Shown one piece after another: positions 15,474 through 59,673 of a DNA stretch of 64,000 nt. The notes beneath the pieces are model-generated. The model saw nothing but the letters and a program-made list of their open reading frames with translations. It was not told the DNA's origin and made no database searches. Source of the stretch: an uncultured Acidobacteriota bacterium (GTDB lineage Bacteria > Acidobacteriota > Thermoanaerobaculia > Multivoradales > JAHEKO01); NCBI GenBank assembly GCA_963713825.1, contig CAVQNG010000003.1:1568001-1632000 (forward strand), given 5' to 3'. A program made the position numbers and the translations under genes. Numbering within the stretch: the first letter of the stretch is position 1; the number at the start of each line of letters is the position of its first letter.

Positions 15474-17476
15474 CCCGGTCGAATGACGCTGACGCCGAGC
15501 TGGACCGGGTGGCTCCGGAGGTGAGGGAGGGCATTCGCCTGGTGCCGGTCGTTCACGAGCGCATCGAGCTGGCCAGTGTGGCGCGAGGAGTCTTGGAGGC
15601 TGTGGAACCGGCGGCGGTAGCCGTTGAGCTGCCGACGACCCTCCGAGAGGCCGCAGCCCGGGCCGTCGGGAGGTTACCGTTGATTTCTCTGGTGATCTCG
15701 GAGGAACCGGGGGAAGAAGCGCTGGTGTGGGTCGTGGCGCCCGGTGACCCCCTGGTGGAGGCCATCCGGTGGGCACTCGATCACCAGAGGCCCTTCCTCT
15801 GTATCGACCCCGATCTCTCCTACGAGGAACGACACGCCGACCGGGTTCCAGACCCTCACGCTCTGTGGCAAATGGGCGTCGGCGACTATCTCCAGAGCCT
15901 GCGACAGGGTCTGCGCAGCGGTGGAGTGTCCGCAGTGGATGATCGCCGAGAAGCAGGAATGGCCTTTCATTTGCGACAGGCGCAGGAAGAGATCGCGGCA
16001 CCGATCGTGGCATTCGTCGGGGCGGCCCACCTGGAGGGCGTCCGATCTCGGCTCGATGGACCACTGGCACACCCGTTCGCACGGACCCAGCGCAGCCGGG
16101 TTCTGGTGCGGCACCTGGCTCCCGACAGTCTCACGGCATTGCTGCCAGACGCTCCGTTGGCACACGCCGTCTGGGAGCGGGTCCGAGAGGGTCAGGCTCC
16201 CACTGACGCGGAGCTCGGATCCACCCTCTCGCGGCGCCAGTCTGTGGTGCGCTTCGGTCTTCGTGTTATCCATGGGGAGCGGGGAAGCGACGAAGCTGAT
16301 CGGAGCGAGAGGCTCGTGGACTATGCCAGCAAGCACGGCACCCGAGAGGGCTTCGGTGGCGGAGTCGCTCCGGACAGGGCCCGGCTTGGCGGTGTTGTCT
16401 GGCGGATCGCGGCAGGATCGTACACCGAGCAGACCGGGGAGACCGTGGCCGCCTGGCAGAGGAGACTGTTCTTCGACTTTTCGAGGCGCTGTGCCAGGGT
16501 ACAAGGCAATCTGATGCCAGGTCTCTACGAATGGGTGATCGCGGGACGGGGTGTCGGTGATGACAACCTGGCCTGGGAGATCTTCGATGTCTCTCGAACC
16601 TTCCCTTGGCAAGAAGACCAGGCGGAGATCGAGACCGTTTCCGTCGATGGAGAGGAACTGGATCTCGGCACTCGCAAGCTAAGGTTTCGGCGCCGTTTCC
16701 TGCGCGTCAAGCAGCGGCCCGTTGCCATCCCCGTTCGGGAGCACCCTCATCCCGACAGCCCGGAGGATTGGTTGCGGGCTTTCGATTCGACCGGCCTTTG
16801 CTCCTATCCTCCCGAAGACCTGGTGATCGAGGACTACGGGCGTTTTCTGCAGCAGAAGGCCCTGTCGGTGCTGTCAGCCGAACGCAAGAGGACCGAGCCC
16901 TTCGTTTGTAGCCTGTTGGACGGGATCGACATCCGAGAGACACTCCGCAATGTCCATGAGGACCGGATCTATGTGGAGGAGAAGGGCCGAGTGCCGGGAG
17001 ATGCGGGTTCGGTCGTCGTCGTCTTCGACCGCGACGTGGACAACGAGCGCTACCCCTTTGCCATGACCTGGCTGGGGGAGCATGATCAGGAGTCGGACAT
17101 GGCGTTCTATGCCACGAATCCGGCAGATCAGGTGGTGGGTCCCGGCATGATGCGGGCCACCTACGGCGGGTTCGTGCTGACCCAACCGAGAGGCAGGCTG
17201 TCCGACGTCTGGTCGGATCCGGACTATCGATTCGCCCGCAGCAGGGCGGAGATCTTGCTGATGGCGGCTATCGACTACAGCCTCGAGAAGATCGTGGTGC
17301 ATCTGGCCTCAGACCCTCCCGTCGAGAGACTGCGCCAGTACGCCGCCGTCCAGGGCAAGCAGATCCTCCACATTCCCCTAGCCTCGCTGTCTCCCGTGAC
17401 ACTCAAGAAGATCCGTGTCATGCACATCCTCGCCGGCCACGACAAGCGCGCCATGGCCAAGGACTACATCTGGTGA
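15470..17476 (+). CDS. Hypothetical AAA+ partner: TraB/Tiki-like N-terminus and degenerate VWA-like C-terminus
   Basis: GTGA overlap with the ATPase; VAVELP, RREAGMA and FVGAAHL motifs; later GIDIRETLRN...VVVVFD. Confidence 0.75.
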   Translation: MTRSNDADAELDRVAPEVREGIRLVPVVHERIELASVARGVLEAVEPAAVAVELPTTLREAAARAVGRLPLISLVISEEPGEEALVWVVAPGDPLVEAIRWALDHQRPFLCIDPDLSYEERHADRVPDPHALWQMGVGDYLQSLRQGLRSGGVSAVDDRREAGMAFHLRQAQEEIAAPIVAFVGAAHLEGVRSRLDGPLAHPFARTQRSRVLVRHLAPDSLTALLPDAPLAHAVWERVREGQAPTDAELGSTLSRRQSVVRFGLRVIHGERGSDEADRSERLVDYASKHGTREGFGGGVAPDRARLGGVVWRIAAGSYTEQTGETVAAWQRRLFFDFSRRCARVQGNLMPGLYEWVIAGRGVGDDNLAWEIFDVSRTFPWQEDQAEIETVSVDGEELDLGTRKLRFRRRFLRVKQRPVAIPVREHPHPDSPEDWLRAFDSTGLCSYPPEDLVIEDYGRFLQQKALSVLSAERKRTEPFVCSLLDGIDIRETLRNVHEDRIYVEEKGRVPGDAGSVVVVFDRDVDNERYPFAMTWLGEHDQESDMAFYATNPADQVVGPGMMRATYGGFVLTQPRGRLSDVWSDPDYRFARSRAEILLMAAIDYSLEKIVVHLASDPPVERLRQYAAVQGKQILHIPLASLSPVTLKKIRVMHILAGHDKRAMAKDYIW

Positions 17477-17950
17477 TTGGGGGGTTGAGGCATCCGGTGC
17501 GTTGCACCGGCTGATCCTTGAAGGCTTGGGGGTTGAGCCGGCAGCACTTCGTGTCGGCCGTTCTTTGAGGGCCTGGGGGTTGAGACGGCCGATCGGACCA
17601 GGGATCTCCCCCGTCTGCGGTCTCACCCGACCATGCCCCTCCGACGAGGGAGACCCATGGCCCGATCTACCACCTTCGACACACATCAATCATCGGATTG
17701 CTGACTCACTCCCTACGCCCTTAAGCCCCTACTACCCTCACCGGTGCCAGAGGTTCGCGCGGGTGGTTCGACAGGGGGCGCCGAGTCGAGCGCAGCGCAA
17801 GGGCCACGATAGAGCACCACCAATGGGGCGCGATGACGAGACGATGTGGCGGCCCCCCATTGCAGTCTGAGTCGCCGACACCGTCCGCCTGCGGACCACC
17901 CGAACGGACCTCCACGCGATGATAGTCGCCAGTTCAGGACCCAAGCCCCA
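17461..17950 (+). repeat. Modular structured intergenic repeat, copy 1 (A array, B, C, D, tail)
   Basis: Aligns by eye with copies at about 25.5, 35, 47.2 and 59.5 kb; fills a convergent gene gap. Confidence 0.95.
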
Positions 17951-17996
17951 AAGATCAGCTGGAAGGGACGCCCGGCTGCTTCAGCCAGTTGAGCTT

Positions 17997-18758
17997 TCAG
18001 CTCAACTGGCCGTAGTAGACGTGCGTGTCGTACTCGATGTTGACGTGATCGTCGACTTCGTGGGCTTCGAAAATTTCGCGCAGGGCTCGCAGCATGTCCG
18101 TATGGCGAGGATGATTCGGACCAGGGGTGTAGGAAGACGACAGGAGGCGTGCCTTCAAACCGTCGAAACGGAAGCTCTGGTGGTTGTCGAAGGCGGCGGT
18201 TGCATAGGTCTCACTGCCGTAGAAGGCCTGAATCTCCTTGGATCCGATCCGAGTGTGATCCACCTTTTCGTAGTCGGTTCCGTAGGCCAATAGCAACTCT
18301 TCGTAGGCTTGCAGAAATGGGCTACCCAGCTTTCTGCGATCGTTCCAGATGAGAACCACCCATCCTCGAGGCCGCAAGATTCTGGCGAACTCGCGGCGTG
18401 CCGCCTTGGCGTCGAACCAATGGTAGGCCTGGCCGGCCGCAATCAGGTCAGCGGAATCGTCGGGCAGCCCAGTGTCTTCGGCGGTGCCGTCGAGGCTGGC
18501 GAAGAGGCGGTAGGTTGCCAGCAAGGCCTCCCCGGCGCGCCGCATTTCGACGTTGGGCTCCACCCCATAGACTCGACAACCGTTGTCCAGGAAGAGTCGG
18601 CTCAGAATTCCGGTTCCAGAGCCGATGTCGGCCACGGCCCATCCCGGTGTGAGGCCGCATTCGACTTTCAAGAGCTCTGCGACTTCCTGTGGGTAGGCGG
18701 GCCGGGAGCGGACATAGCTCTCGACACGCCGGCCGAATCGATCTGCTGGTTTCGTCAT
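17997..18758 (-). CDS. Class I SAM-dependent methyltransferase
   Basis: VADIGSGTG motif I, GVEPN, AGQAYHWFD. Confidence 0.92.
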   Translation of the reverse strand: MTKPADRFGRRVESYVRSRPAYPQEVAELLKVECGLTPGWAVADIGSGTGILSRLFLDNGCRVYGVEPNVEMRRAGEALLATYRLFASLDGTAEDTGLPDDSADLIAAGQAYHWFDAKAARREFARILRPRGWVVLIWNDRRKLGSPFLQAYEELLLAYGTDYEKVDHTRIGSKEIQAFYGSETYATAAFDNHQSFRFDGLKARLLSSSYTPGPNHPRHTDMLRALREIFEAHEVDDHVNIEYDTHVYYGQLS

Positions 18759-18838
18759 GGTCCTCGTACTGGATGAGCTGCCACCGTCTTCGAGCAGGTA
18801 GCTCGTGTGCGGCGGCCTGGCCTCGGTCTGATTCGGTC

Positions 18839-19186
18839 CTACGGATCCTGTTCGGTCAGGGCGACCTTCAGCGCTTCGACATCTTCGGGCGTCAGGTCGA
18901 GAAACTGCAGCCCGACATCGTAGGACGCCGCTTCGCCTTCCGGTAGCTCCTGAACCCAGGCAACCTCCGTCAGGAGGGTCAGTGTCGACTCGTCCGGGAG
19001 CCTCAGCTCGACCTCAAGTCGCCGCCCAGGCTGCATCGGATCGTCGCTGTAGACCCGAACACCGCCAAGACCCAGATCGATGGGCTGCCCACCCTTCGCG
19101 GCCAGTGGTCCCACTGGGCGGCAGTAGGCCGGCACCTGCAGCCGAGGATAGCGCCTTCTCTCTTGGCGTTGCGCTTCGTCAGTCAT
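18839..19186 (-). CDS. Stand-alone PilZ domain protein
   Basis: ERRRYPR (RxxxR) and DLGLGG (D/NxSxxG-like) motifs; C-terminal GLQF. Confidence 0.85.
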   Translation of the reverse strand: MTDEAQRQERRRYPRLQVPAYCRPVGPLAAKGGQPIDLGLGGVRVYSDDPMQPGRRLEVELRLPDESTLTLLTEVAWVQELPEGEAASYDVGLQFLDLTPEDVEALKVALTEQDP

Positions 19187-19278
19187 GATGTTGCTCGAAC
19201 TCTCGCCCTTCGATTCAACAAGAGTTTACCATCTGAGCTCGAGGCTTCGGCACCAGGGTTGTGGCCGCCGGCCCAAGG

Positions 19279-21207: not shown

Positions 21208-21292
21208 GGCCAGCGGAGTCTATATCAACTAGCCCCAGCGGTCTGGCTTGATATGATTAGGCGTCTCCTGGACAGTGAGGAGAGAACAGCAC

Positions 21293-21847: not shown

Positions 21848-21850
21848 GAC

Positions 21851-23068: not shown

Positions 23069-23125
23069 AGCGGACTCCGAGCTAGTTCTGCTTTGCAGGG
23101 TCGGGTGCGATGTCGAAGATGGAGA

Positions 23126-25017: not shown

Positions 25018-25065
25018 GGAGTGAATCTACCGCGGAGAATGGCTCGAGAGCGAGCCCGACAGCGC

Positions 25066-25485: not shown

Positions 25486-25494
25486 GCCCCCGTA

Positions 25495-25836
25495 GAGGTC
25501 CGTCCGGGCGGCCCGCCGGGGGACGGCGTCGGCTACTCAGACTGCAACGGGGGGCCGCCACCTCGTCTCGTCATCGCGCCCCGTCTCCTGTGCTCTATCA
25601 AGGACCTTGCGCAGCGCTCGACTCGGCGCCCCCTGTCGAACCACCCGAACGAACCTCTGACACCAACAGGGGCATAAGGGCTTAGGGCAGTAGGGGCGTA
25701 AGTGGTGTGGATCGGCTGCTCCCTCGAGCCCCAAAGGGCGGCCGACACGGAGTGCGGCCGGTTCAACCCCCAAGCCCTCAAGGATCGTCCGGAGGTACGA
25801 CCGGACGCCTCAACCCCCAAAGGACCGACTAGGTCC
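25495..25836 (-). repeat. Modular structured intergenic repeat, copy 2 (A array, remnant of B, C, D)
   Basis: Reverse complement matches the A and D modules of copy 1; convergent gap. Confidence 0.95.
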
Positions 25837-26434
25837 GAAAATCCAAGATGTCGTAGGACAACTGCTGGAACAGGGAGCGGGTCAGAGGCAAGGGCAGGCC
25901 CACGACGTTCGTGTAGTTGCCGACGACCCTTTCGACAAAAAGGGCACCGAGCCCCTGAATGGCATAGGAGCCGGCCTTGTCCAGAGGCTCGCCAGTCGAC
26001 ACGTACCAGGAGATCTCGTCTTTGTCGAGAGCGGCGATCCGCACCTCCGATCGGTCCGTGGCGGAGACCAGGGTGTCACGATCGGGCTCGAAAAGAGCGA
26101 CGCCCGTATAGACATCATGCTCTCGGCCGGTCAGACTGCTCAACATCTGGTGCGCCTCGGCTGTGTCGGCAGGCTTGCCGAGAATGCGGCCCTCCAGAAC
26201 GACAACGGTGTCAGCTGCCAGGACCAATTCGCCCGGCCGTGCCACGGCCTGAGCCTTGGCTCGGGCGAGGCGCAACACATGATCTTCGGGTAGCTCGTCG
26301 GTGAGGGCGCTCTCGTCGATCTCGGCCGATCGGACCTCGAAGTCGAGCTGGAGACCTGCAAGGAGATCTCGTCGTCGTGGTGAGGCTGAGGCCAACACCA
26401 GTTGCTCCGGCAGCCTTGGAATCGAGCGGATCAT
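25829..26434 (-). CDS. maf: Maf family nucleotide pyrophosphatase
   Basis: LASASPRR, AADTVV, DKAGSYAIQG and NVVGLP motifs. Confidence 0.95.
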   Translation of the reverse strand: MIRSIPRLPEQLVLASASPRRRDLLAGLQLDFEVRSAEIDESALTDELPEDHVLRLARAKAQAVARPGELVLAADTVVVLEGRILGKPADTAEAHQMLSSLTGREHDVYTGVALFEPDRDTLVSATDRSEVRIAALDKDEISWYVSTGEPLDKAGSYAIQGLGALFVERVVGNYTNVVGLPLPLTRSLFQQLSYDILDFRT

Positions 26435-33970: not shown

Positions 33971-34020
33971 ACACTGGTCGTCCTTGGGAGAGTGCAAACC
34001 GATGGATGGAGTCTTCTGAG

Positions 34021-34899
34021 ATGAGGGTTCACATCGTCTGTCAGAGGTGGAAGCAGGACCGCGTACTGTCGCGGTTCGCGCGGTACCTCGTCGATCGCTG
34101 GGGTTGGACGGTGAGCCGGCGTCCCGACCGCAAGGCTGATCTGAACTACTGGATTGCGTTTCTGGAATGGGAACGGTTCAAGGGCTTCGATCGCACCCCG
34201 ACCGTGGCCTTCATGACCCATCCAGAAGACGAGATCGACAACCCCGAAAAGTACCGGCTGTACTTCGACGCCGCCCGGGAAGCCGACCTGAGGATTTGTA
34301 TGAACGAAGTCAGTCGGCTGGAGCTCGAGGCTCTCTACGGCCTGTCCATGCAGGCTCCTCTTCCCCTGGACTGCGAGCATTTTCCTCTCAAATCGGCGTC
34401 GCCAGGAGGATCGCCCCGCGTCGGCTTTTCGGGCAAGGCCTATCGAAGCGGTCGCAAGGGCGAAGACCTGGCCGAGCATCTTGTCGAGGACTTCCAGGAC
34501 CGCTGCGAGTTTGCGGCCTCGGGAAAGAAGTGGCCCTGTCCGACCCGGTGGTACAGCTGGGAAGAAATGCCACAGTTCTTCCAAAGTCTGGACATCTACG
34601 TCTCTACCTCGCTGGTCGAGGGCGGGCCCATGCCAACCCTGGAGGCTCTTGCTACCGGTCTACCGGTCGTCATTGCAGCAGGCGTTGGACTGCATGACGA
34701 GCTGCCAGCCGTGAAGGGCATCTATCGGTACGAGAAGGGCAACTACGAAGATCTACGAAGAGCCCTCGATCAGGCTCTAAGCGAGTACCGCGATATTGAC
34801 CGCGAGCTTCTCCGCCAGGCGACGAGCCCCCACGCTGTCGAGAATTGGTGCGTCGCGAACCGGAGTGCCTTCGAAGATCTACTGGCTCATCGGCCTTGA
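34021..34899 (+). CDS. GT-B/GT4-like glycosyltransferase
   Basis: STSLVEGGPMPTLEALATGLPVV (Ex7E motif); start estimated. Confidence 0.8.
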   Translation: MRVHIVCQRWKQDRVLSRFARYLVDRWGWTVSRRPDRKADLNYWIAFLEWERFKGFDRTPTVAFMTHPEDEIDNPEKYRLYFDAAREADLRICMNEVSRLELEALYGLSMQAPLPLDCEHFPLKSASPGGSPRVGFSGKAYRSGRKGEDLAEHLVEDFQDRCEFAASGKKWPCPTRWYSWEEMPQFFQSLDIYVSTSLVEGGPMPTLEALATGLPVVIAAGVGLHDELPAVKGIYRYEKGNYEDLRRALDQALSEYRDIDRELLRQATSPHAVENWCVANRSAFEDLLAHRP

Positions 34900-34932
34900 G
34901 GACTTGAAGCGATTCCGCCCACTCACCCGTCC

Positions 34933-35400
34933 TGGGGCTTGGGTCCTGAACAGACAACGATCTTCGTGTGGAGGCCCGTCCGGGTGGTCCGCAGGCGGAC
35001 GGTGGCAGTTTCACAGACTTTGACGGGGGACCGCCACCTCGTCTCGTCATCGCGCCCCGTCTCCTGTGCCCTATGAAGGATCTTGCGCTGCGCTCGACTC
35101 GGCGCCCCCTGTCGAACCACCCGAACGAACCTCTGGCACCAATGGGGCGTAGGGGGTGAGTCATCTGCCGGGGTCTCGATGTGTCTCGATGGCGGTAGAT
35201 CGGGTCATGGGTCTCCCTCGTCTGAGGGGCATGGTCGGGTGAGGCCGTAGACGGGGGAGATCCCTGGTTCGATCGGCCGTCTCAACCCCCAGGCCCTCAA
35301 GGACCGGCTGGAGCTGGCGACAGCCGCCTCAACCCCAAGCCCTCAGAGACCAACCGAAGGAACTTCGGCTGCCTCAACCCTCAGGGCGGGTGGGAGGTCC
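34933..35400 (-). repeat. Modular structured intergenic repeat, copy 3 (complete; overlaps the rsmI 3' end)
   Basis: Reverse complement is collinear with copy 1, including the tail TTCAGGACCCAAGCCCCA. Confidence 0.95.
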
Positions 35401-36063
35401 AATGACTGCGGTGAACTCACCCTTGATGGATGGGCGCGTGGCCAGGTCTGCGTGGATCTCGGAGATCCGGCCACGGAGTGTCTCTTCGTGCAGCTTGGTG
35501 AGCTCACGGCCAACCGCTGCTGGCCGGTCCCCCCAGGTCTCCTGAGCATCTTCGAGGCTCGCGACGATGCGGTGGGGCGACTCGAAGAAGACCAGGGTGT
35601 GCTCGAGATCGGAGAATCGAGCGAAGAACCGTCGTCGCTTGCCTTGGCGGGGTGGGGGAAAGCCGAGGAAGCTGAAGGGATAAGGGGGTAGCGCTGAGAC
35701 GACGAGGGCCGCAAGAATCGCCGAGGCTCCCGGCACGTGCTCCACAGGGATAGCCTTCGCCGCCGCCTCTCGAACCAGCACAAAGCCGGGGTCGGAGAGT
35801 AGTGGCGTTCCGGCGTCGCTGACCAGTGCTACCTGGAGTCCGGAGTCCAACTGTTCGAGAAGGTGTGGGACTCTCTGTCGCTCGTTGTGCTCGTGAAGGG
35901 AGATCAGCCTGGCCTCGATCCCGAGGCGAGCGAGCATGCGGCCGGTATGACGGGTGTCCTCGCAAGCGACGAGGTCGGCCTCGACGAGGGTGCTCCGAGC
36001 TCGCGGTGACAGGTCTTCCAGATTGCCGATGGGAGTGGCGACGATGGTCAGCTTTCCCGGCAT
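35374..36063 (-). CDS. rsmI: 16S rRNA C1402 2'-O-methyltransferase (short form)
   Basis: ATPIGNLED, CEDTR, VSDAGTP..SDPG, FESPHR and RELTKLHE motifs. Confidence 0.96.
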   Translation of the reverse strand: MPGKLTIVATPIGNLEDLSPRARSTLVEADLVACEDTRHTGRMLARLGIEARLISLHEHNERQRVPHLLEQLDSGLQVALVSDAGTPLLSDPGFVLVREAAAKAIPVEHVPGASAILAALVVSALPPYPFSFLGFPPPRQGKRRRFFARFSDLEHTLVFFESPHRIVASLEDAQETWGDRPAAVGRELTKLHEETLRGRISEIHADLATRPSIKGEFTAVIGPPTRPEG

Positions 36064-44941: not shown

Positions 44942-47206
44942 TTGTCTGTGTTCGTCGCACCTGAGATAGGACCGCGGCTATCGGTCGGTCTTTGCGTCAG
45001 CCTTCTTGTGCTGACTGCTGCTGGTGTGTTGGCGCAGGCAAGCCCCAGGCCCAGAACCGAGTACTCGATCCCCCGCACGGAGTCACCGATCAATGTCGAT
45101 GCCAAGCTCGACGAGCCGGCGTGGCAGGAAGCTGCCCGAATCGACCTGCAGTATGAGACCCACCCTGGCGAGAACATCCCCGCACCGGTAGAGACCGAGT
45201 GTCTGGTTACCTACGACAGCAGCCACGTCTATATCGCTTTCAGGGCCTACGATGAGAATCCGCAAGCGATTCGAGCCCACATGGTCGACCGGGACACGGC
45301 GTTCAATGACGATTTCGTCGGCGTCGTGCTGGACACCTTCAACGACGAGCGCCGGGCCTTCGAGTTCTTCGTCAATCCTCTCGGCGTACAGATGGATCTG
45401 TTCAACGACGATCTGAGCCACGATGAGACAACGTCCTGGGACGCGATCTGGTCCTCGGCAGGTCGCATCACCGAAGAGGGGTATGTTGTCGAGTTGGCGA
45501 TTCCCTTCCATCAGCTTCGATTTCCGAGTGGTGGTGAGGAGCTGACCTGGGGCTTCGACGCGGTGCGCTTCTATCCGCGCAGTGACCGGGTCCGGATCGC
45601 TAGCCAGCCCATGGATCGAGGAGTGAGCTGCTACCTCTGTCAGATCTCGAAGGCCACCGGCTTCGAGGGCGCCAGCGCCGGGCGCAACATCGAGCTGGTG
45701 CCGACGCTGACCGCGGGTCGAACCGATGAAAGAGAGGACTTTCCCGAGGGCGACCTACAGGACGGCAGCGCAGAGACTGAGCTGGGTTTGACGGCCAAAT
45801 GGGGCATTACCCCGAGCCTGACCGGAAATCTGGCTCTGAACCCCGACTTCTCTCAGGTCGAAGCCGATGTCGCTCAGCTGGATGTCAACAACCCATTTGC
45901 CCTGTTCTACCCGGAACAGAGACCCTTCTTCCTCGAGGGAGCCGACATCTTCTCGACTCCACTCGATACGGTGTTCACACGCAATGTGGCGGACCCGTTG
46001 TGGGGAGGCAAGATCTCCGGCAAGCAGAGCATCCATGGTCTCGGAGTCTTCGTGGCTCAAGACCAGGTCACCAACCTGCTGTTTCCTGGCAGCGAAGGTT
46101 CTGACAGTGATTCCTTTGACTTCAAGACGATCGACTCGGTCTTGCGATACCGCCGCGACTTCGGAAACGCATCAGCCATAGGGGCCCTGTTTACAGGCCG
46201 GGAGGGTGACAACTACCACAACCGGGTGGCTGGCGTCGACGGCGTCTATCGCATCACCGATACCCACTCCCTACGATTCCAGGCCCTCGGTTCTCAGAGC
46301 CTCTACCCAGACGACATTGCCGAGGACTACGACCAGCCAATGGGTAGCTTCAGCGACCAGGCGTACCTCTTGGGGTACAGCCATGACTCGAGGAACTGGC
46401 GGGGCTGGGCGCGGTACCAGGACATCGGTGAGGATTTCCGCGCCGACATGGGCTTCATGCCTCAAGTCGACTTTCGAGAGGGCTCGACCGGCTTCGAACA
46501 CAATTGGTGGGGAAAGGAAGGCGACTGGTACAACCGCATCGAGCTCGGTAGCGAGCTCGAGCGCAACGAAGACCAGACAGGGCAGCTGTTGCAGCAGGAG
46601 TGGAGAGTGTGGAGTGGTGTCGGCGGTCCTCTACAGTCCTTTGTCTGGCTCAATCTGTCCCTCGCAGAGCAGGGGTACGAAGGCGAAGTCTTTAACGCCA
46701 ACGCTGTGCGAACCTTCTTTCGAATTCAACCGAGCGGCATGTTCTCGTTCGATATGTTCTCTCGCATTGGCGGGCAGGTGGATTTCGACAATGTTCAGCA
46801 AGGCGATGCTGTGAGGCTCGTGCCGAATTTTAGGCTCAACCTGGGGCGCCATGTTCAGGCGCAACTACGCCACACCTATGAGCAGCTGGACGTCGACGAT
46901 GGACGGCTCTTCACCGCCAACTTGAGTCAGTTGCGCTTCGTCTATCAGTTCAACATCCGCACCTTCGTTCGGGCGATTGTCCAATACACCGACATCGATC
47001 GGGACTTGAGTCTCTATGACGATCCCGAGGATGTAGACGCCAAGACCAATCAGGTCTTCAGTCAGTTGCTGTTCTCTTACAAGGTGAATCCGCGCACCGT
47101 CCTCTTCCTGGGCTACTCGGACAACCGGGAAGGCGACGAGAACAACGACCTCCTACAAGAAGACCGATCCGTCTTCCTGAAGATCGGCTACGCCTGGAAT
47201 CTGTAG
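44942..47206 (+). CDS. CBM9-like plus DUF5916-type outer membrane protein
   Basis: DAKLDEPAW, FEFFVNPLGVQMD, LNPDFSQVEAD and EQRPFFLEG motifs; aromatic barrel-type C-terminus; start uncertain. Confidence 0.8.
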   Translation: MSVFVAPEIGPRLSVGLCVSLLVLTAAGVLAQASPRPRTEYSIPRTESPINVDAKLDEPAWQEAARIDLQYETHPGENIPAPVETECLVTYDSSHVYIAFRAYDENPQAIRAHMVDRDTAFNDDFVGVVLDTFNDERRAFEFFVNPLGVQMDLFNDDLSHDETTSWDAIWSSAGRITEEGYVVELAIPFHQLRFPSGGEELTWGFDAVRFYPRSDRVRIASQPMDRGVSCYLCQISKATGFEGASAGRNIELVPTLTAGRTDEREDFPEGDLQDGSAETELGLTAKWGITPSLTGNLALNPDFSQVEADVAQLDVNNPFALFYPEQRPFFLEGADIFSTPLDTVFTRNVADPLWGGKISGKQSIHGLGVFVAQDQVTNLLFPGSEGSDSDSFDFKTIDSVLRYRRDFGNASAIGALFTGREGDNYHNRVAGVDGVYRITDTHSLRFQALGSQSLYPDDIAEDYDQPMGSFSDQAYLLGYSHDSRNWRGWARYQDIGEDFRADMGFMPQVDFREGSTGFEHNWWGKEGDWYNRIELGSELERNEDQTGQLLQQEWRVWSGVGGPLQSFVWLNLSLAEQGYEGEVFNANAVRTFFRIQPSGMFSFDMFSRIGGQVDFDNVQQGDAVRLVPNFRLNLGRHVQAQLRHTYEQLDVDDGRLFTANLSQLRFVYQFNIRTFVRAIVQYTDIDRDLSLYDDPEDVDAKTNQVFSQLLFSYKVNPRTVLFLGYSDNREGDENNDLLQEDRSVFLKIGYAWNL

Positions 47207-47710
47207 GACCTTCGCCCTACCGGCGAAAGGTCCCGAGGGTTGAGGCGGCCGCCGTGCCTTCGGCCGGTCTATGAGGGCCTGGGGTTGAGGCGGCTGTCGC
47301 TTGCTCGAGTTGGCCTTTGGGGGCTTGGGGATCGAGACGGCCGATCGAACCAGGGATCTCCTTCGTCTGCGGCCTCACCCGACCATGCCCCTCCGACGAG
47401 GGAGACCCATGGCCCGATCTACCACGCTCGAGACACATTGAGAATCCGACTGCTGACGCGCCCCCTACGCCCCTAAGCCCTTACGCTCCTAAGGGTGCCG
47501 AAGGTTCGTTCGGGTGTTTCGACAGGGGGTGTGCCGAGTCGCGCGCAGCACAAGGGCCATCAAAGGGCAAGGAGGATGACGCGCGATGACGAGACAAGGT
47601 GGCGGCCCACCTCAATGAAGGGGAGGGGCTTGCCCCCTCCCGTGGGAGCCCGCAAGGGGCTCCCCTACAAAGCCGACGCCGTCCCCCAGCGAGCCACCCG
47701 GACGAACCTC
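47206..47710 (+). repeat. Modular structured intergenic repeat, copy 4 (carries an inserted REP doublet)
   Basis: A, B, C and D modules match copies 1 and 3; convergent gap. Confidence 0.95.
47617..47668. repeat. Inverted doublet of GTAG-family REP-like palindromes
   Basis: GAAGGGGAGGGGCTTGCCCCCTCCC followed by the reverse complement of GTAGGGGAGCCCCTTGCGGGCTCCC. Confidence 0.75.
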
Positions 47711-51891: not shown

Positions 51892-51923
51892 CCGAGTGCC
51901 TGCGCTAATCCGAAGGCATTAGT

Positions 51924-54124: not shown

Positions 54125-54239
54125 CCGCTGCATGTAGCTATACAACCGTGCATTATATTTGGATGTGGAGTCGGGTGTCAAAGTCTCCTTTCCGTTGTTC
54201 AAGCCACTAGGCGCAATGACTTGCAAGACCTGCGCCATC

Positions 54240-54959: not shown

Positions 54960-55184
54960 GCCGGTCTCTTCGAGCTCTTTCTTCCAGATCTGTGACAATC
55001 AGGGTACTCCAGCGTACGAAACAGGTGACAGTAGTCGATCTCTGATCCCGAGTGGCCTTTCAGTCCAGCCCTGCCGTCGGTATAGACGGGAAAAAGGTCG
55101 ATATACTTGCGATTCGAATTGGTCCCGGGAATCGGTCGCCCTCACGAACGAGTGAGGTGCAGCGGTCCAAGAGTGGGGGAAAAC

Positions 55185-55745
55185 GTGAGACGAAAGCAGA
55201 TTCTGGTCGTCCTTCTTCTGGCAGGCTTGCTATTGACTCCAGTGGCCACCAGGGCCCAGGAGCTCTACTCTTTTACCGGCAGTCTCATGCTCGGATTGGG
55301 CGGATCTTTTGACGAAAGCGAGGCAGGCTTCGGAAACCCCTCGTTCCAACTGGGCTTCTCCCATGTTCTCGAGAACAGGACTCATGTGGGTTTTCGACTC
55401 GGTTACCTTGGCTTCGGTTCGAACGATTACGTGGGTGAGCTCAAAGGAGCCGATCTGACCTACCTCAACGTCAGTGGCGAGTACCGGGCGGCGAAAGGCT
55501 CCTTCTCCGGCAGTCTCATGGAATCCGGTGTCTACATCGGCCTCGGTGGCTACCAATTGAGCGGCGATACCGACGATGGCCGGAGTGAGAACGGCACCTC
55601 CATCGGTTTGGTTCTGGGACTCACGGGTGACATCGAGATTTCCCCCAGCTTCGCCGTCAGGATCGAGCTCAGCGGCCACATCCTGAGCTCCGATGTGGCC
55701 CGTTACTTTGGCCTCGCACAGGTCGGCGTGACCTATCGCTTCTAG
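55185..55745 (+). CDS. Small outer membrane beta-barrel protein
   Basis: Signal peptide, Gly/aromatic strands, ends GVTYRF. Confidence 0.78.
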   Translation: MRRKQILVVLLLAGLLLTPVATRAQELYSFTGSLMLGLGGSFDESEAGFGNPSFQLGFSHVLENRTHVGFRLGYLGFGSNDYVGELKGADLTYLNVSGEYRAAKGSFSGSLMESGVYIGLGGYQLSGDTDDGRSENGTSIGLVLGLTGDIEISPSFAVRIELSGHILSSDVARYFGLAQVGVTYRF

Positions 55746-55768
55746 CAAGCAGCTCTCGGCAGTCGATC

Positions 55769-56899
55769 TTGTTCTCCGAAAACCAGTCTCCATCGTCGGA
55801 CCAACGCAGCGCAGTTCTGGTGGGCTTGAGCCTGCCAGGTCAACCCGGCTGGTTGGTCGAAGAGCACCTGGACGAGTTGGCCGAGCTCACCCGTAGCGCT
55901 GGGGTCGAGGTGGCAGCTCGGGCCATGCAGCAGCGCAAGACGCCTCACGCTGGCACCTTCATCGGCCGGGGCAAGGCGGAGGAGGTCGGCGCAGCTGCTC
56001 GGGAGCTGGGCGCCGATCTGGCGATCTTCGATGACGACCTGTCGGCCAGCCAGGTCAAGAACCTAGAGGAGATTCTCGACCTGCAGGTCATCGACCGGAG
56101 CGGGTTGATTCTCGAGATCTTCGTGCAGAGAGCCCGTACCGGGGAGGCCCGGACCCAGGTCGAGCTGGCGCGCCTCGAGTACCTCCTACCACGCCTGACG
56201 CGTCGTTGGACTCACCTCTCTCGACAGGTGGGTGGTATCGGTGTGCGGGGAGGCGAGGGAGAAACGCAGCTGGAAGCCGATCGGCGGATGTTGCGCCAGC
56301 GGATCCGTCAGCTGAAACGGGATTTGGAGAAGATCGAACGGACACGTCAGGTCCAGAGGCGAGGGCGCCGCGATGCTCTGCAGATTGCACTGGCTGGTTA
56401 CACCAACGCGGGTAAGTCAACGCTCTTCAATCAGCTCACCAAAGCAGGCGCCCGAGTCGAAGACCGGCTCTTTGCGACGTTGGACTCGAAGCTGCGCCGG
56501 GGGGCTTTGAGTCCGGACACAGTGGCGGTCTTCGCCGACACGGTTGGGTTCATTCGCAAGCTCCCGCATCATCTGGTCGCCTCGTTCAAGAGCACGCTGG
56601 AAGAGATCACATACGCCGACCTGGTGCTCCACGTCGTCGATCGCAGTCATCCCCAGTGGCAGGATCAACTCGAAGTAGGCGAGGCCGTCCTCCAGGACCT
56701 GGGAGTCGATGGCGACCGCGTCGTGACGCTGTTCAACAAGTCCGACCTCGCTGGCGACCCGGCACGTTCCACCGAGGGTGCTCTGTGGATCTCTGCGCGG
56801 ACGGGCTCGGGACTGGAAGGTATGAAGAAGGCCATCCTCGAGCGCTTGGTGCCAGCCAAGGCCGATTCCGACTCCACCGAGCTCACCGCCGATTCCTGA
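55769..56899 (+). CDS. hflX: Ribosome rescue GTPase HflX
   Basis: GETQLE.DRR, GYTNAGKST, LFATLD, DTVGFI and NKSD motifs. Confidence 0.96.
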   Translation: MFSENQSPSSDQRSAVLVGLSLPGQPGWLVEEHLDELAELTRSAGVEVAARAMQQRKTPHAGTFIGRGKAEEVGAAARELGADLAIFDDDLSASQVKNLEEILDLQVIDRSGLILEIFVQRARTGEARTQVELARLEYLLPRLTRRWTHLSRQVGGIGVRGGEGETQLEADRRMLRQRIRQLKRDLEKIERTRQVQRRGRRDALQIALAGYTNAGKSTLFNQLTKAGARVEDRLFATLDSKLRRGALSPDTVAVFADTVGFIRKLPHHLVASFKSTLEEITYADLVLHVVDRSHPQWQDQLEVGEAVLQDLGVDGDRVVTLFNKSDLAGDPARSTEGALWISARTGSGLEGMKKAILERLVPAKADSDSTELTADS

Positions 56900-56998
56900 T
56901 CGCCGCACTCCAGGTCGCTCCCGGCTGGGCCTCGCACCAAGCCATCGTTAGCTAGTTCATACCCAGTGCGCTCGTGCTCTGCCTAGACTTTGTTTGTC

Positions 56999-59443
56999 GT
57001 GAGAGATCCAGTGCATCTGTTGTCTCTGCTGGCGTTCCTGGTGACCGGCTTCCATCTGGCGCTTGGCGTCTACCTCTTGAAGTCCAACCCACGGGCAGCG
57101 CTGAACCGGATCTTCTTTCTGATCTGCGTCAGCTTGGCTTTCTGGTCGTTCGGATTCTCCTTTCTCCAGGGCGCTCCGACCAAGGAGGAGGCCTGGTTCT
57201 GGTTCAAGGTGTCGTCACCGGGATGGACGCTGACACCGTCGCTTCTCCTGCACTTTCTGATTCTTCTGGTGCGGAAGGAGAAGCTCCTCGATCGGCGGGG
57301 CGCCTACGTGGCGCTCTACGCACCGGCTTTCTACTTCTTCGGGCGGGCACTGTTCGGAGAAATGGGGGTCGTCGATTTCGTGGAGACCCCATTCGGCTGG
57401 TCGGACGTCTACGGTCCACTCTCGGTCGGCTACGCGATCTACCTGGTCTACTTCTCGAGCTACATCCTTTATGGGCTGTGGCTGGTCTGGCAGTTTGGAC
57501 GCCAGAGCGAGGTGATTGCCGAGCGGCGGCAGGCGGCTGTGCTCGTCTATTCGGGGGCCCCTGTCCTGGCAGCGGTCGCCATTTCAGGGATCTTCCTGCC
57601 CTGGGCCGGGATTCGCAATCCTCCGGAAGTGGCGCACCTGATCGCCCTGCTCTGGGTCCTGGTGATCTGGAATGCGGTGTCGAAATACAAGCTGATGTTG
57701 ATGACCCCTGCGGCGGTCGCACCGAACATCCTGCGGACCATGGTAGACGCCGTGATCCTTCTGGGACGCGACAGGACGATCGTGACGTCCAACAAGGCTG
57801 CTCGTAGACTTTTCGCAGCTTCGGGCCGGAAGCTCGAGGGTCTCAGCCTGGGGCAGGTCTTCGGCGGCCCCGATTCGGAGACGGCACTCGAAACGGAGCG
57901 CTTCCTTCTCGACGGCGGGGAGAACCTCGAGGTCTCCTTTCGGCCTGAGGATGGCGATGAGGTAGTGCTCAGGGTCTCGACCTCCGAAGTTCTCGACTAC
58001 TTCGAGCAGCCCATGGGCGAGGTACTGGTGTTTCGGGACGTGACTGCCGAGAAGAGGGCCGAAGCCGATCTACGCTACCTGGCAACGCACGATTCGCTGA
58101 CGGATTTGCCGAACCGGTCGCTCCTACAAGATCGACTCGACAGAGCGGTGAGCCGATCGCAACGAGAGAGCGTCGGTTTCGCGGTCATCATGTTCGATCT
58201 CGACGATTTCAAGCGGGTCAACGACGACATCGACCATGTGGTTGGCGATGCGGTTCTGAAAACGACCGCCAGGCGCCTGGCACACTGCGTTCGTGGTCTC
58301 GACACGGTCTGTCGATTGGGCGGTGACGAATTCCTGCTCGTGGTCGAAGACCTGGTCGAGGTTGATGAGGCAGACATCATCGCCCGGCGAATCATGCGGT
58401 CGTTTGAAGAACCCATGAACGCCCTGGGTCACTCGATCACCGTGACGGGGAGCATCGGAATCAGCACCTATCCGGCCGACTCCGACGAGCCGACCACCCT
58501 GGTGAAGATGGCTGATCTGGCACTCAACACCGCGAAACAGGCGGGGCGGGGGCTGTATCGCTTCTTCTCACCGAATATGGAGGCTTCGAACCGTCAGCGG
58601 ATCCAGATCGAGAACGGGCTGCAGGACGCCATCGGGAAGGAAGAGCTCTACCTCGCATACCAACCCCTCTTCGACTTCGAGGCGGGTCATATCGCGGGTG
58701 TCGAGGCCCTGATTCGCTGGAACTCTCCTGAGCTGGGCCAACTCGCCCCGATGGAGTTCATTCCGGTGGCCGAGCGCTCGGGACTCATCGTCAAGGTAGG
58801 GGAGTGGGTGTTGCGCACAGCCTGTCAGCAGAACGTGGCCTGGCAGGAGGCTGGACTTCCCAAGGTACCGATCAGTGTCAACGTCTCGGCCCGGCAACTT
58901 CGCGAGGAAGACTTCGCCCAGAGGGTGGTCGAGATCATCGAAGAAACCGGACTCGATCCCAGGTTGCTCGAGATCGAGTTGACCGAGACCGCTGTCATGG
59001 AGAACCTCAGTCGGTCGCGAAAGATCCTGGATGCGCTGGCTGATGCAGGGGTCCGATTGGTCATCGATGACTTCGGTACGGGTTACTCCTCACTCGCCCG
59101 ACTGCGACAGTTACCCATCGAGGCCATCAAAGTGGACCGCTCGTTCATCGAGAACATCTGTGAAGACGAACGGGACCTGTCCCTGGTGATGGCCATCGTG
59201 GCCATGGCCAGGAACCTGGGTCTTCAGGTCGTCGCCGAAGGCGTCGAGACACTCGATCAGCTCAAGGCGCTCAATGGCCTGGAAGACATGCCTCTGCCCA
59301 GATTCCATTGTGACCGGGTACAGGGTTTCCTCTTTAGCAAACCGGTCGAGGGTGCCGAGCTGGCGCGTTTGTTCACCCGCAGCGAAAGCGAAGTCGAGCC
59401 CTTCCGCAGCATCCGACGCGTCCTGCACGAAACAGCAGCGTAG
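56999..59443 (+). CDS. 7TM-PAS-GGDEF-EAL c-di-GMP enzyme (start 56990 or 56999)
   Basis: N-terminal hydrophobic helices, HDSLTDLPNR, intact GGDEF, EAL, DDFGTGYSS, KVDRSF and EGVE motifs. Confidence 0.93.
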   Translation: MRDPVHLLSLLAFLVTGFHLALGVYLLKSNPRAALNRIFFLICVSLAFWSFGFSFLQGAPTKEEAWFWFKVSSPGWTLTPSLLLHFLILLVRKEKLLDRRGAYVALYAPAFYFFGRALFGEMGVVDFVETPFGWSDVYGPLSVGYAIYLVYFSSYILYGLWLVWQFGRQSEVIAERRQAAVLVYSGAPVLAAVAISGIFLPWAGIRNPPEVAHLIALLWVLVIWNAVSKYKLMLMTPAAVAPNILRTMVDAVILLGRDRTIVTSNKAARRLFAASGRKLEGLSLGQVFGGPDSETALETERFLLDGGENLEVSFRPEDGDEVVLRVSTSEVLDYFEQPMGEVLVFRDVTAEKRAEADLRYLATHDSLTDLPNRSLLQDRLDRAVSRSQRESVGFAVIMFDLDDFKRVNDDIDHVVGDAVLKTTARRLAHCVRGLDTVCRLGGDEFLLVVEDLVEVDEADIIARRIMRSFEEPMNALGHSITVTGSIGISTYPADSDEPTTLVKMADLALNTAKQAGRGLYRFFSPNMEASNRQRIQIENGLQDAIGKEELYLAYQPLFDFEAGHIAGVEALIRWNSPELGQLAPMEFIPVAERSGLIVKVGEWVLRTACQQNVAWQEAGLPKVPISVNVSARQLREEDFAQRVVEIIEETGLDPRLLEIELTETAVMENLSRSRKILDALADAGVRLVIDDFGTGYSSLARLRQLPIEAIKVDRSFIENICEDERDLSLVMAIVAMARNLGLQVVAEGVETLDQLKALNGLEDMPLPRFHCDRVQGFLFSKPVEGAELARLFTRSESEVEPFRSIRRVLHETAA

Positions 59444-59673
59444 GACTCCCCCTCCCACCCTGAGGGTTGAGGCGGTCGGCCAAGGAGTGCCGACCGGTCC
59501 TCGAAGGCTTGGGGGTTGAAGCGGCCGGACCTGTGCCGGCCGGTCTTTGAGGTAGTGGGGCAGTGAGGGAGACCCCTTGCCCGATCTACGTACCGGCTGG
59601 GTGCATCAAGACTCCCTTAGGAGAGTCACACTACACCCCTACGCCCCTAGGCCCTTTACGCCCCTTTACGCCC
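59443..59673 (+). repeat. Modular structured intergenic repeat, copy 5 (A array, 3' arm of B, expanded C; no D)
   Basis: GAGGGTTGAGGC...GGCTTGGGGGTTGAA units, GAGGGAGACCC..GCCCGATCTAC and a CCCCTACG tract. Confidence 0.88.

What the first reader, a model, noticed from the sequence alone, without database searches (positions are those of the whole stretch)
17461..59673. Five-copy modular structured non-coding element confined to convergent gene junctions
Seen: homologous sequence at 17461-17950(+), 25495-25836(-), 34933-35400(-), 47206-47710(+) and 59443-59673(+). It occupies 5 of the 7 tail-to-tail junctions in the window. The other two (21847/21851, 38479/38511) have no gap, and no full copy lies at tandem or divergent junctions. 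Module order is fixed (A mini-array, B fold-back, C 8-mer tract, D fold-back, tail), but modules are lost or expanded independently. There is no conserved ORF and no adjacent transposase. Inference: at this density it could have many copies genome-wide. It may be an undescribed BIME/REPIN-like mosaic element mobilised in trans, or a family of structured 3'-UTR/ncRNAs controlling termination or stability of converging transcripts. I do not recognise it as a known RNA family.
Basis: partly seen in the sequence, partly recalled or inferred. Interest (0 to 1): 0.88.

Follow-up and report, generated by a model that had tools for sequence, protein, structure and literature searches.

The report
Mosaic gene-end repeats with Y-shaped element
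The five look-alike stretches are copies of a genome-wide mosaic of small folded non-coding repeats that pile up where genes end in an uncultured sediment acidobacterium; one 172-base module is a Y-shaped folded element, absent from RNA catalogues, whose shape is kept across several related genera.

Summary
All five copies sit at the stated places, in 5 of the window's 7-8 convergent junctions. They belong to about 175 loci (about 40 kb) in this 5.4-Mb Acidobacteriota genome.

It is not one element but a mosaic of separate repeat families:
- A: a 47-nt REP-like hairpin unit, 237 copies in 150 arrays.
- B: a 116-nt long hairpin, about 36 copies.
- C: a C-rich 8-mer tract.
- D: a 172-nt Y-shaped module, about 82 copies.
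- H: a 51-nt GTAG-tagged hairpin nested in some D copies.

"Confined to convergent junctions" fails genome-wide. D is enriched there (39 of 82 copies, against 17% of junctions) but also lies in tandem junctions on either strand (15 versus 17).

The sharper rule concerns A. Arrays start at or within the stop codon of a gene on the same strand (116 of 150), and in 20 cases they supply that stop.

D matches no Rfam family. It recurs in 11 of 20 genera of the family with strong compensatory change. Orthologous junctions in five congeners differ in content and in D orientation.

Best reading: a REP/BIME-like, trans-mobilised, recombining repeat system, probably transcribed as 3' ends. An earlier scan note (e1-1535619) had already described D elsewhere in this genome.

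The parts
17482..17577 (+). Locus 1: two head-to-tail A units (47-nt REP-like hairpin units with a GGGTTGAGG head). They start 5 nt after the stop codon of the + strand gene 15470-17476.
   Evidence: nhmmer profile hits; sequence read
17578..17693 (+). Locus 1: B, a 116-nt imperfect long hairpin that opens with an A-like head.
   Evidence: nhmmer 112 bits; the reverse strand folds better in 36 of 36 copies
17711..17741 (+). Locus 1: C, a C-rich 8-mer tract (CCCTACGC/CCCTAAGC type) running directly into D.
   Evidence: Read; flank consensus of 74 D copies
17743..17913 (+). Locus 1: D, the 172-nt Y-shaped structured module.
   Evidence: nhmmer 154.6 bits; covariance model R1 178.6 bits
17933..17985 (-). 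Locus 1: tail (reverse complement of the A-array linker) plus one decayed inverted A unit belonging to the convergent gene 17997-18758(-).
   Evidence: nhmmer A hit 17940-17985(-); read
25722..25820 (-). Locus 2: A array following the stop of the Maf gene 25829-26434(-). One clear unit at 25769-25816 and one degenerate unit.
   Evidence: one hit; second unit read by eye
25666..25702 (-). Locus 2: C tract.
   Evidence: Read
25493..25664 (-). Locus 2: D. There is no B here.
   Evidence: nhmmer 166.4 bits
35288..35393 (-). Locus 3: C-rich leader (CCCACCCGCCC type) plus two A units. The TGA inside the first GGGTTGAGG head (35374-35376) is the stop codon of gene 35374-36063(-).
35174..35287 (-). 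Locus 3: B.
   Evidence: nhmmer 107.6 bits
34970..35156 (-). Locus 3: short C tract (35143-35156) and D (34970-35140).
   Evidence: nhmmer 159.9 bits; RNA fold -89.4 kcal/mol, z -3.37, against -79.1, z -1.65 for the other strand
34916..34969 (-). Locus 3: 3' extension, tail and inverted leader, reaching into the 3' end region of gene 34006-34899(+).
   Evidence: Read; recurrent 3' flank of D
47237..47329 (+). Locus 4: two A units. They come 30 nt after the stop of gene 44942-47206(+), behind an unrelated small hairpin at 47206-47233.
47332..47446 (+). Locus 4: B.
   Evidence: nhmmer 111.6 bits
47461..47710 (+). Locus 4: C tract (47461-47493) and D (47494-47710), with D interrupted by H.
   Evidence: nhmmer 125.8 bits over 217 nt
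47619..47669 (+). Locus 4: H, a 51-nt GTAG...CTAC-tagged double hairpin nested in arm 2 of D.
   Evidence: nhmmer 58.6 bits. H sits at the same D site in 7 copies found by pattern (the H profile placed 10 hits inside D hits), and those 7 are not each other's nearest relatives
59449..59558 (+). Locus 5: C-rich leader and two A units (59464-59511 by eye, 59513-59558 by profile) after the stop of gene 56990-59443(+).
59563..59676 (+). Locus 5: remnant of the right half of B and a C tract that runs into the stop of gene 59674-61017(-). No D.
   Evidence: Read; no D or B profile hit here

Best explanation
The five copies are local instances of a genome-wide mosaic built from several independent, non-autonomous, fold-defined repeat families. 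They accumulate and recombine at gene 3' ends.

A units are REP-like hairpins. They form head-to-tail arrays that begin at, or a few bases inside, the stop codon of a gene on the same strand.

B (a long hairpin), the C tract and D (a Y-shaped three-way junction with a roughly 20-bp closing stem) lie distal to the A arrays. They therefore end up in the middle of convergent junctions, where each gene contributes its own inward-pointing A array. H is a GTAG-tagged hairpin that has entered the same loop of D more than once.

Shown: the families, their copy numbers, their positions relative to genes, the conserved fold of D, and the turnover between species.

Inferred: (1) the modules spread as DNA through a trans-acting enzyme that recognises folded single strands; the candidates present are four RAYT-like Y1 transposase paralogues and IS110-type recombinases. 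(2) Selection against promoter damage and against long C-terminal extensions leaves them at gene ends in the sense orientation. (3) Recombination between the many copies flips and swaps the inner modules. (4) They are co-transcribed as structured 3' ends, as REP elements are.
For: Scale and modularity.
- 182 BLAST loci totalling 39.5 kb.
- 237 A units, 43 de-duplicated B hits (36 above 90 bits) and 100 D hits (82 above 90 bits, 76 full length) in 173 clusters with many different architectures.

Position relative to genes.
- D: 39 convergent, 32 tandem and 7 divergent. The background is 720, 2825 and 716 junctions.
- A: 116 of 150 arrays lie 3' of a co-oriented gene. 92 are within 30 nt of its stop. 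20 overlap the gene so that the element's own TGA is the stop.
- All 93 A units within 200 nt of a D point towards it.
- Sense-strand doublet arrays close 2-3 reading frames in 75 of 86 cases. Antisense arrays close 0-1 frames in 80 of 86.

Fold.
- The A stem shows compensatory variants, for example CG to AU or UA at four pairs.
- D: alifold -53 against -14 kcal/mol for the two strands.
- Within the genus, 97.4% of cells pair, but only 3 pairs change on both sides.
- Across genera, 39 of 41 pairs change on both sides. The covariation score is 0.621 against 0.177 in shuffles (0 of 500 reach it) and 0.06-0.11 when partners are slid.

Mobility and turnover.
- At three orthologous junctions the six congeners differ in which modules are present and in the orientation of D.
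- H sits at the same D site in copies whose nearest relatives lack H.
- The D family is patchy: 21 of 45 genomes of the family and 10 of 121 of the order.
- A heads occur only in loci of the genus: 56 of the 95 earlier loci, which also include ten G000 transposase loci and two loci from other genera, against 0 of 31 later loci, all from other genera apart from the last two, fetched after the count.

No linked gene.
- 0 of 53 proteins flanking 28 distant D loci is a transposase, integrase or RT.

Precedent.
- REPs lie downstream of ORFs, between unidirectional and convergent ORFs. Their termini supply stop codons, and G-T pairs are frequent in their stems (PMC3733652, passages read).
Against: - No mobilising enzyme is tied to the repeats. 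The four RAYT-like genes have unique, repeat-free flanks. Y1_Tnp genes are in 37 of 45 family genomes whether D is found (19 of 21) or not (18 of 24).
- No TnpB and no reverse transcriptase was found.
- No target-site duplication or clean empty/filled site pair was found.
- Copies are old: median pairwise identity of D is 81.5%, and the only identical pairs lie on apparently redundant contigs. Recent transposition is therefore not shown.
- The strict polarity of A arrays to gene direction is unusual for REPs. It is explained by selection only for the 20 arrays that overlap a stop codon.
- D keeps its fold and several unpaired motifs across genera. This fits a host-useful RNA as well as it fits a recognition structure for a transposase.
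- Gene positions come from my own crude caller, so context counts carry some error.
Confidence: 0.6

Rival explanations
1. Host-function first. The A arrays, and perhaps the whole A-B-C-D cassette, are cis-acting 3'-end RNA elements. The hairpins, laid directly behind the stop codon in the sense orientation, would protect the mRNA 3' end or stop transcription. Between converging genes the C-rich tracts and D would insulate the two transcription units from each other. Mobility would be secondary.
For: A arrays are co-oriented with the upstream gene and abut it in 116 of 150 cases; 92 are within 30 nt of the stop. The far end of an array is almost never near a gene (2 of 150 within 30 nt). Arrays recur at the same gene ends in several congeners, although the units differ. 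Linkers are G-rich on the sense strand. The C tract carries a canonical G-quadruplex motif on the strand opposite D in 33 of 82 copies and on the D strand in 0 of 82. Canonical hairpin-plus-T-run terminators are not enriched in this region (8 found, 10.5 expected), so the organism may end its transcripts by other means. REPs are thought to act as RNA elements (PMC3733652).
Against: Only about 116 of about 4300 called genes carry an array. The A hairpin shows no strand asymmetry (G-U 15 cells, A-C 20). Only 1 of the A units in the scanned 20 kb looks like an intrinsic terminator. D has no strand bias in tandem junctions (15 same, 17 opposite). B folds best on the strand antisense to the upstream gene (36 of 36). 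No expression data could settle it.
Confidence: 0.25
2. D is a stand-alone structured RNA gene family (a multi-copy small RNA or ribozyme-like RNA) with its own transcription. The surrounding A, B and C repeats are unrelated neighbours that share the same permissive sites.
For: Strong compensatory change across genera (39 of 41 pairs). Conserved unpaired motifs across genera, such as CGAGCGC and CGGCGCGA. The D strand folds better in 63 of 69 copies, with z -3.37 against -1.65. G-U exceeds A-C, 124 to 45 cells. D is wider in distribution than A.
Against: No promoter-like sequence lies upstream: the 5' flank is a C-rich tract, and the promoter scan found 1 site in 20 kb, not at an element. There are 82 diverged copies per genome with high positional turnover. 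D is inverted relative to its flanks in some copies. It has a terminal inverted repeat of 21-28 bp, typical of mobile DNA. Its distribution among genomes is patchy. The alignment used for the covariation count was fitted to the model's structure, which favours that structure.
Confidence: 0.12
3. The pattern is an artefact of metagenome assembly or binning: collapsed or chimeric repeats.
For: This is a 38-contig MAG with redundant contigs (C13, C14 and C16 carry the same D region; C26 and C27 are 98% alike). One 475-bp stretch is 99.4% identical to another species' assembly while its flanks are about 79% identical.
Against: The same families are present in six separately assembled congeners and in other genera, at hundreds of distinct loci with unique flanks. 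Contigs of four public runs also carry them. The copies differ from one another by about 18%.
Confidence: 0.02

Closest known systems
REP elements and their BIME clusters (enterobacteria, pseudomonads and many others; survey PMC3733652, passages read)
   Same: Short hairpin units in hundreds of copies. They are extragenic, lie mostly downstream of ORFs and between unidirectional or convergent genes, are clustered and reiterated in tandem, sometimes supply the stop codon of the neighbouring ORF, and have stems kept by compensatory change. H even carries the GTAG...CTAC tag of the GTAG REP superfamily.
   Different: A units carry no GTAG or CGTC tag. Their constant parts are long unpaired flanks around a variable stem. 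Arrays are head-to-tail and polar to the gene, not alternating in orientation as in BIMEs (the BIME layout is recalled, not read). The mosaic also includes a 116-nt hairpin and a 172-nt three-way junction, both far larger than any REP.
REPIN-RAYT systems (REP doublets mobilised by a REP-associated Y1 tyrosine transposase). This was also the closest-known choice of scan note e1-1535619.
   Same: Non-autonomous, fold-defined repeats that persist in a lineage, with RAYT-like genes present in the genome (4 paralogues; NCBIfam REP_Tyr_transpos 51.5 bits, below the cut-off of 80).
   Different: The RAYT-like genes are not flanked by any of these repeats. Their presence does not track D across the family. 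The units are not inverted doublets.
Structured MITE-like repeats such as Correia/NEMIS of Neisseria, ERIC of enterobacteria, and BOX/RUP of pneumococci (recalled from general knowledge; named in other scan notes)
   Same: 100-200-nt non-coding elements with terminal inverted repeats that fold into long stems, are scattered between genes and are often co-transcribed.
   Different: D shows no target-site duplication that I could find, and no related IS. Its fold, a three-way junction, is kept across genera while its stem sequences are replaced.

Membership tests
REP (repetitive extragenic palindrome) | Short imperfect palindrome, high copy number, extragenic | tested here: met
   A: 237 units of 45-49 nt with a covarying hairpin core. 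H: 48 profile hits.
REP (repetitive extragenic palindrome) | GTAG or CGTC tag at one end (the superfamilies of PMC3733652) | tested here: not met
   The A head is GGGTTGAGG and carries no tag. H does carry GTAG...CTAC, so H alone meets this feature.
REP (repetitive extragenic palindrome) | Located downstream of ORFs, between unidirectional or convergent ORFs, sometimes supplying the stop codon | tested here: met
   116 of 150 arrays lie 3' of a co-oriented gene; 20 supply the stop.
BIME | Clusters of REPs in alternating orientation separated by defined linkers (layout recalled, not read) | tested here: not met
   Arrays are head-to-tail on one strand (85 doublets and 1 triplet). Inverted arrays occur only because each convergent gene carries its own.
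REPIN-RAYT | RAYT gene flanked by the REPs it mobilises | tested here: not met
   Four Y1_Tnp/RAYT-like genes. No inverted repeats were found within 1.5 kb, and their flanks match nothing else in the genome except each other.
MITE | Terminal inverted repeats | tested here: met
   D has a closing stem of 18-21 bp, extended to about 28 bp in symmetrical copies.
MITE | Target-site duplication and a related autonomous IS | tested here: inconclusive
   No consistent direct repeat flanks 76 copies. No clean filled/empty pair was found at three orthologous junctions. No IS with D-like ends was found; an IS110-type gene on contig C26 lies next to an H copy and a D fragment only.
IS200/IS605-derived elements (PATE) or TnpB omega-RNA ends | TnpB or IS200-type TnpA partner; strand bias following replication | tested here: not met
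   No TnpB domain in the genome. D strands are mixed along contig C3 and within the window.
Any Rfam family (release 15) | Covariance-model score at or above the gathering threshold | tested here: not met
   0 matches in the window. The best sub-threshold hit on copy 1 scores 22.7 bits against a threshold of 80.
Intrinsic terminator | GC-rich hairpin followed by a T run | tested here: not met
   8 sites in 20 kb against 10.5 expected; only one of them is an A unit.
Retron or other RT-dependent non-coding element | Reverse transcriptase in the genome | tested here: not met
   No RVT_1 match in the 96%-complete genome.

The most novel reading that the evidence does not exclude
D is a new class of structured nucleic acid: a roughly 175-nt three-way junction with conserved unpaired motifs, present in several to about 100 copies per genome across an order of Acidobacteriota. 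The A arrays are a gene-polar '3'-end cassette' laid down at stop codons. This cassette supplies stops in several frames plus hairpins. Together with the C-rich/G-quadruplex tract and D, it would work as a two-sided insulator of transcription and translation between neighbouring genes. On this reading a repeat system has been taken over as the lineage's way of ending genes.
Probability: 0.18. Interest if true: 0.8.

Novelty: new variant of a known kind. Interest (0 to 1): 0.6.

Why it matters
Three reasons.

First, it adds an undescribed, well-populated repeat system for a phylum (Acidobacteriota) whose non-coding DNA is almost unstudied. About 0.7% of this genome is made of it.

Second, the rule that A arrays begin at the stop codon on the gene's own strand is sharper than what is reported for REPs. 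It gives a direct, testable link between a repeat family and gene 3'-end formation, in an organism whose sequence shows few classical terminators.

Third, D is a covariation-supported fold that is missing from Rfam and spread over several genera. That makes it a concrete candidate for a new structured RNA, or for a structure-recognised mobile DNA. Either way it offers a handle for finding the enzyme that moves such elements.

On a practical level, these repeats break assemblies and seem to serve as crossover points between species, which matters for reading MAGs of this group.

Tried and rejected
- Rfam at gathering thresholds and at E up to 10 on copy 1: only chance-level miRNA/snoRNA hits. 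tRNA/tmRNA scan: none.
- Plasmid and phage collections, distant BLASTN of copy 1: no match.
- TnpB and reverse transcriptase in the genome: none found.
- RAYT link: four RAYT-like genes exist, but their flanks are unique. Y1_Tnp presence across 45 family genomes does not track D: 19 of 21 D-positive against 18 of 24 D-negative. These tallies include the unpublished genome G006.
- IS110 link: one IS110-type gene on contig C26 abuts an H copy and the last 40 nt of a D. Comparison with the variant contig C27 did not show a simple insertion into D. Not followed further.
- Large gene-free gaps beside elements were checked for missed transposases. The ORFs looked like ordinary genes cut by my context rule. 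They were not searched against Pfam.
- Expression: two metatranscriptome runs (X1, X2) hold contigs that cover the elements. Summed depth over element bins was 8.7-37.7 in X1 and 1.2-9.5 in X2. The same bins are raised in a run of unrecorded kind (X3, 36-75), as multi-copy DNA would be, and only contigs were available, so neither strand nor transcript ends can be read. No conclusion was drawn.
- Stop-codon targeting: genes followed by a non-overlapping A array use TGA 35, TAG 31 and TAA 6 times. The background is 2342, 1637 and 307, so there is no TGA preference.
- Small ORF inside D: not conserved.
- H-bearing D copies as one subfamily: rejected. The smallest clade holding all 7 contains 61 of 76 tips, and each one's nearest relative lacks H.
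- Replication-strand bias of D: none visible by eye in the hit list. Not tested formally.
- Literature searches ('repetitive extragenic palindromic' + Acidobacteria; Thermoanaerobaculia + repeat; Acidobacteria + MITE) listed nothing that describes these elements. I read only the listings, plus passages of PMC3733652. One search failed on a syntax error and was not repeated.
Full report
WHAT IS THERE

The window is G000:C3:1568001-1632000 of a 5.42-Mb, 38-contig genome with 62% G+C. Earlier notes of this scan place it in Acidobacteriota, class Thermoanaerobaculia; I did not test that name myself.

After a stop codon come one or two 47-nt units, each with a GGGTTGAGG head, a hairpin whose stem differs from unit to unit, and a TCTTTGAGGGCTTGG-type linker (A). 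Then follow a 116-nt long hairpin (B), a run of C-rich 8-mers (C), a 172-nt block (D) and a short C-rich tail.

Rfam has no match at curated thresholds and none of note at E up to 10. There are no tRNA or tmRNA genes in the window.

GENOME-WIDE PICTURE

BLASTN of the five copies gives 798 hits, which merge into 182 loci totalling 39.5 kb. Coverage along the query is uneven: about 40 loci cover B, about 82 cover D and 50-70 cover A. The modules therefore have separate copy numbers.

Iterated nhmmer profiles give these counts:
- 237 A units.
- 43 de-duplicated B hits, 36 of them above 90 bits.
- 100 D hits, 82 of them above 90 bits and 76 full length.
- 173 clusters in all.

The architectures include A-A alone, D alone, A-A-D in both relative orientations, A-B-D, and inverted A arrays with nothing between them. 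D lies downstream of B on the same strand in 28 cases and on the opposite strand in 2; six B copies have no D.

POSITION RELATIVE TO GENES

No gene caller was available, so I wrote a codon-usage caller. It gives 4299 genes and 88% coding, and it reproduces the plausible genes of the window. It yields 720 convergent, 716 divergent and 2825 tandem junctions.

D lies in 39 convergent, 32 tandem and 7 divergent junctions, with 2 genic and 2 at contig edges. In tandem junctions it is on the genes' strand 15 times and on the other strand 17 times. The element is therefore about three-fold enriched at convergent junctions, not confined to them, and D has no polarity.

A is different. Of 150 arrays (85 doublets, 64 singles, 1 triplet), 116 lie directly 3' of a gene on the same strand. 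92 of these are within 30 nt of its stop, 44 within 5 nt, and 20 overlap the gene end; in 15 of the 20 the TGA inside GGGTTGAGG is the stop codon. Only 2 arrays have a gene within 30 nt of their far end. Window copy 3 is such a case: its stop is at 35374-35376.

Non-overlapping cases show no preference for TGA stops.

Sense-strand doublets close two or three reading frames in 75 of 86 cases, while the antisense strand is nearly stop-free. This would favour survival of sense insertions that clip a gene's end.

Every A unit within 200 nt of a D points towards it (93 of 93). A convergent junction thus looks like one composite element simply because each gene brings its own inward-pointing array, with B-C-D in the middle. 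The 'tail' is the reverse complement of the end of the opposite gene's array.

FOLDS

The A hairpin core keeps pairing through compensatory variants and shows no strand asymmetry.

B folds better on the strand antisense to A in 36 of 36 copies. Alifold gives -55.3 against -31.9 kcal/mol, with 142 G-U cells against 6 A-C.

D folds better on its own strand in 63 of 69 copies. Alifold gives -53 against -14 kcal/mol. Window copy 3 folds at -89.4 kcal/mol (z -3.37), against -79.1 (z -1.65) for the other strand.

The consensus D fold is a Y: a closing stem of about 20 bp and two arms. Within the genus the copies are too alike to prove it. 97.4% of cells pair, but only 3 pairs change on both sides.

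A covariance model built from 40 genus copies finds full-length matches in other genera. It hits 21 of 45 genomes and 11 of 20 genera of the family. In the order it hits 10 of 121 genomes at E up to 1e-4, in families f1, f3, f7, f8 and f10.

In these distant copies the stem sequences are replaced but remain paired, while a few unpaired motifs stay constant. On 38 aligned matches:
- 39 of 41 pairs change on both sides (311 cells).
- 91% of cells pair.
- The covariation score is 0.621, against 0.177 in shuffles (0 of 500 reach it) and 0.06-0.11 with slid partners.
- G-U cells outnumber A-C cells, 124 to 45.

The caveat is that this alignment was fitted to the model's structure.

D has no conserved ORF.

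TURNOVER

A, B and D all occur in the five other species of the genus; D has 50-99 first-look candidates per genome. A heads occur only in loci of this genus.

I fetched three orthologous junctions through their flanking proteins and read them.

Junction 1:
- G000 has A-A-B-C-D(+).
- G003 has D on the other strand.
- G004 has a different, roughly 200-nt module in D's place.
- G001 has only a D fragment.
- G002 has just two inverted A units.

Junction 2:
- D is present in G000, inverted in G002, and absent in G003 and G004.

Junction 3:
- G000 and G004 share A-B-C-D.
- G003 has the other module.
- G005 has D with H.
- G002 has D inverted.
- G001 has fragments only.

Some G000 copies carry D flipped between the same kinds of flank, with the inverted repeat extended to about 28 bp.

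The nested hairpin H (48 profile hits, GTAG...CTAC ends) sits at one and the same D site in copies that are not each other's closest relatives. These facts show repeated insertion, inversion and replacement. I could not define target duplications or exact mobile units.

WHO MOVES THEM

- No TnpB and no reverse transcriptase was found.
- Four RAYT-like Y1 transposase paralogues exist; NCBIfam REP_Tyr_transpos scores 51.5 bits, below its cut-off. Their flanks are unique.
- Y1_Tnp genes are almost universal in the family (37 of 45 genomes), so they do not discriminate.
- Three IS110-type genes exist. One lies next to an H copy and a D fragment.
- Of 53 proteins flanking 28 distant D loci, all are ordinary housekeeping or metabolic proteins.

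The mobilising enzyme therefore remains an inference.

The tallies include genome G006, which is flagged unpublished. No specific claim rests on it.

EXPRESSION

Two metatranscriptome runs hold contigs over the elements. A run of unrecorded kind shows the same excess, and only contigs were available, so nothing can be concluded.

Classical terminator-like and promoter-like sites are not enriched in 20 kb around three of the copies.

COMPARISON WITH KNOWN KINDS

The closest kind is REP/BIME. The survey PMC3733652 (passages read) reports REPs downstream of ORFs, between unidirectional and convergent ORFs, reiterated in tandem, supplying stop codons, and with G-T pairs.

This system differs in several ways:
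- A has no GTAG or CGTC tag.
- Arrays are head-to-tail and polar to the gene.
- No RAYT gene is flanked by the repeats.
- It includes much larger folded modules, above all D, which is an order-wide fold family absent from Rfam.

Three literature searches listed nothing on these elements. Distant BLASTN against the plasmid and phage collections found nothing.

My results agree with it and add three things: the mosaic context, the gene-end polarity of A, and the cross-genus covariation count.

VERDICT

The most likely reading (0.6) is a set of trans-mobilised, fold-defined selfish repeats that survive at gene ends and recombine. A host role at mRNA 3' ends is a live rival (0.25), and D as an RNA gene family is a further one (0.12).

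It is a new variant of a known kind, of moderate to high interest.

Noticed in passing
window 34817-35291 versus L060 (G004:C174): A 475-bp tract is 99.4% identical (3 mismatches) between G000 and congener G004, while both flanks are about 79% identical. The tract covers the last ~83 nt of gene 34006-34899, the tail, D, C and B. Its right edge is exactly the A|B border. This is either recent inter-species recombination using the repeats as a crossover point, or assembly cross-talk.
   Followed up: partly
window 47619-47669; genome-wide, e.g. C3:447278-501989: H is a 51-nt GTAG...CTAC-tagged double hairpin with 48 profile hits and compensatory changes in its second hairpin. It is a repeat family of its own. 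Nine copies, all on the minus strand, lie within 55 kb of contig C3. It also enters one specific loop of D repeatedly.
   Followed up: partly
G000:C26:21300-22670 (L043) versus C27:21245-21357: An IS110-family recombinase gene (333-aa frame) has, upstream of it, about 190 nt that recur at C3:471673-471865 and C3:966804-966928. This stretch ends in an H copy whose GTAG end is replaced, followed by the last 40 nt of a D. The layout fits an IS110-type element that targets H-like hairpins. Contigs C26 and C27 are 98% identical variants up to this point.
   Followed up: partly
L046:2790-3040 (G004, junction 1); L058 (G003, junction 3); L055 (G005, junction 3): Another non-coding module of about 200 nt, absent from the window, occupies D's slot between the C tract and the tail in sister species. 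In the G004 copy it shares D's last ~35 nt.
   Followed up: no
G000:C3:1031156-1032097, C3:1152153-1153149 region, C3:1296537-1296782, C5:483534-483791: Four diverged paralogues of a 313-364-aa RAYT-like Y1 transposase lie in unique, repeat-free surroundings. Similar genes occur in 37 of 45 genomes of the family, which suggests domesticated copies.
   Followed up: partly
5' flank of D copies genome-wide (e.g. window 17711-17741, 47461-47493): The C tract gives a canonical G-quadruplex motif on the strand opposite D in 33 of 82 copies, and never on the D strand.
   Followed up: no
window 47206-47233: A separate small GC hairpin (GGACCTTCGCC...GGCGAAAGGTCC) sits directly on the stop codon of gene 44942-47206, ahead of the A array. 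A similar stop-proximal hairpin precedes the A unit in G004 at junction 1.
   Followed up: no
G000 contigs C13:33136-33308, C14:15407-15579, C16:16485-16657: Three contigs carry an identical D copy with identical flanks. This points to redundant contig ends in the assembly, so copy counts are slightly inflated.
   Followed up: no
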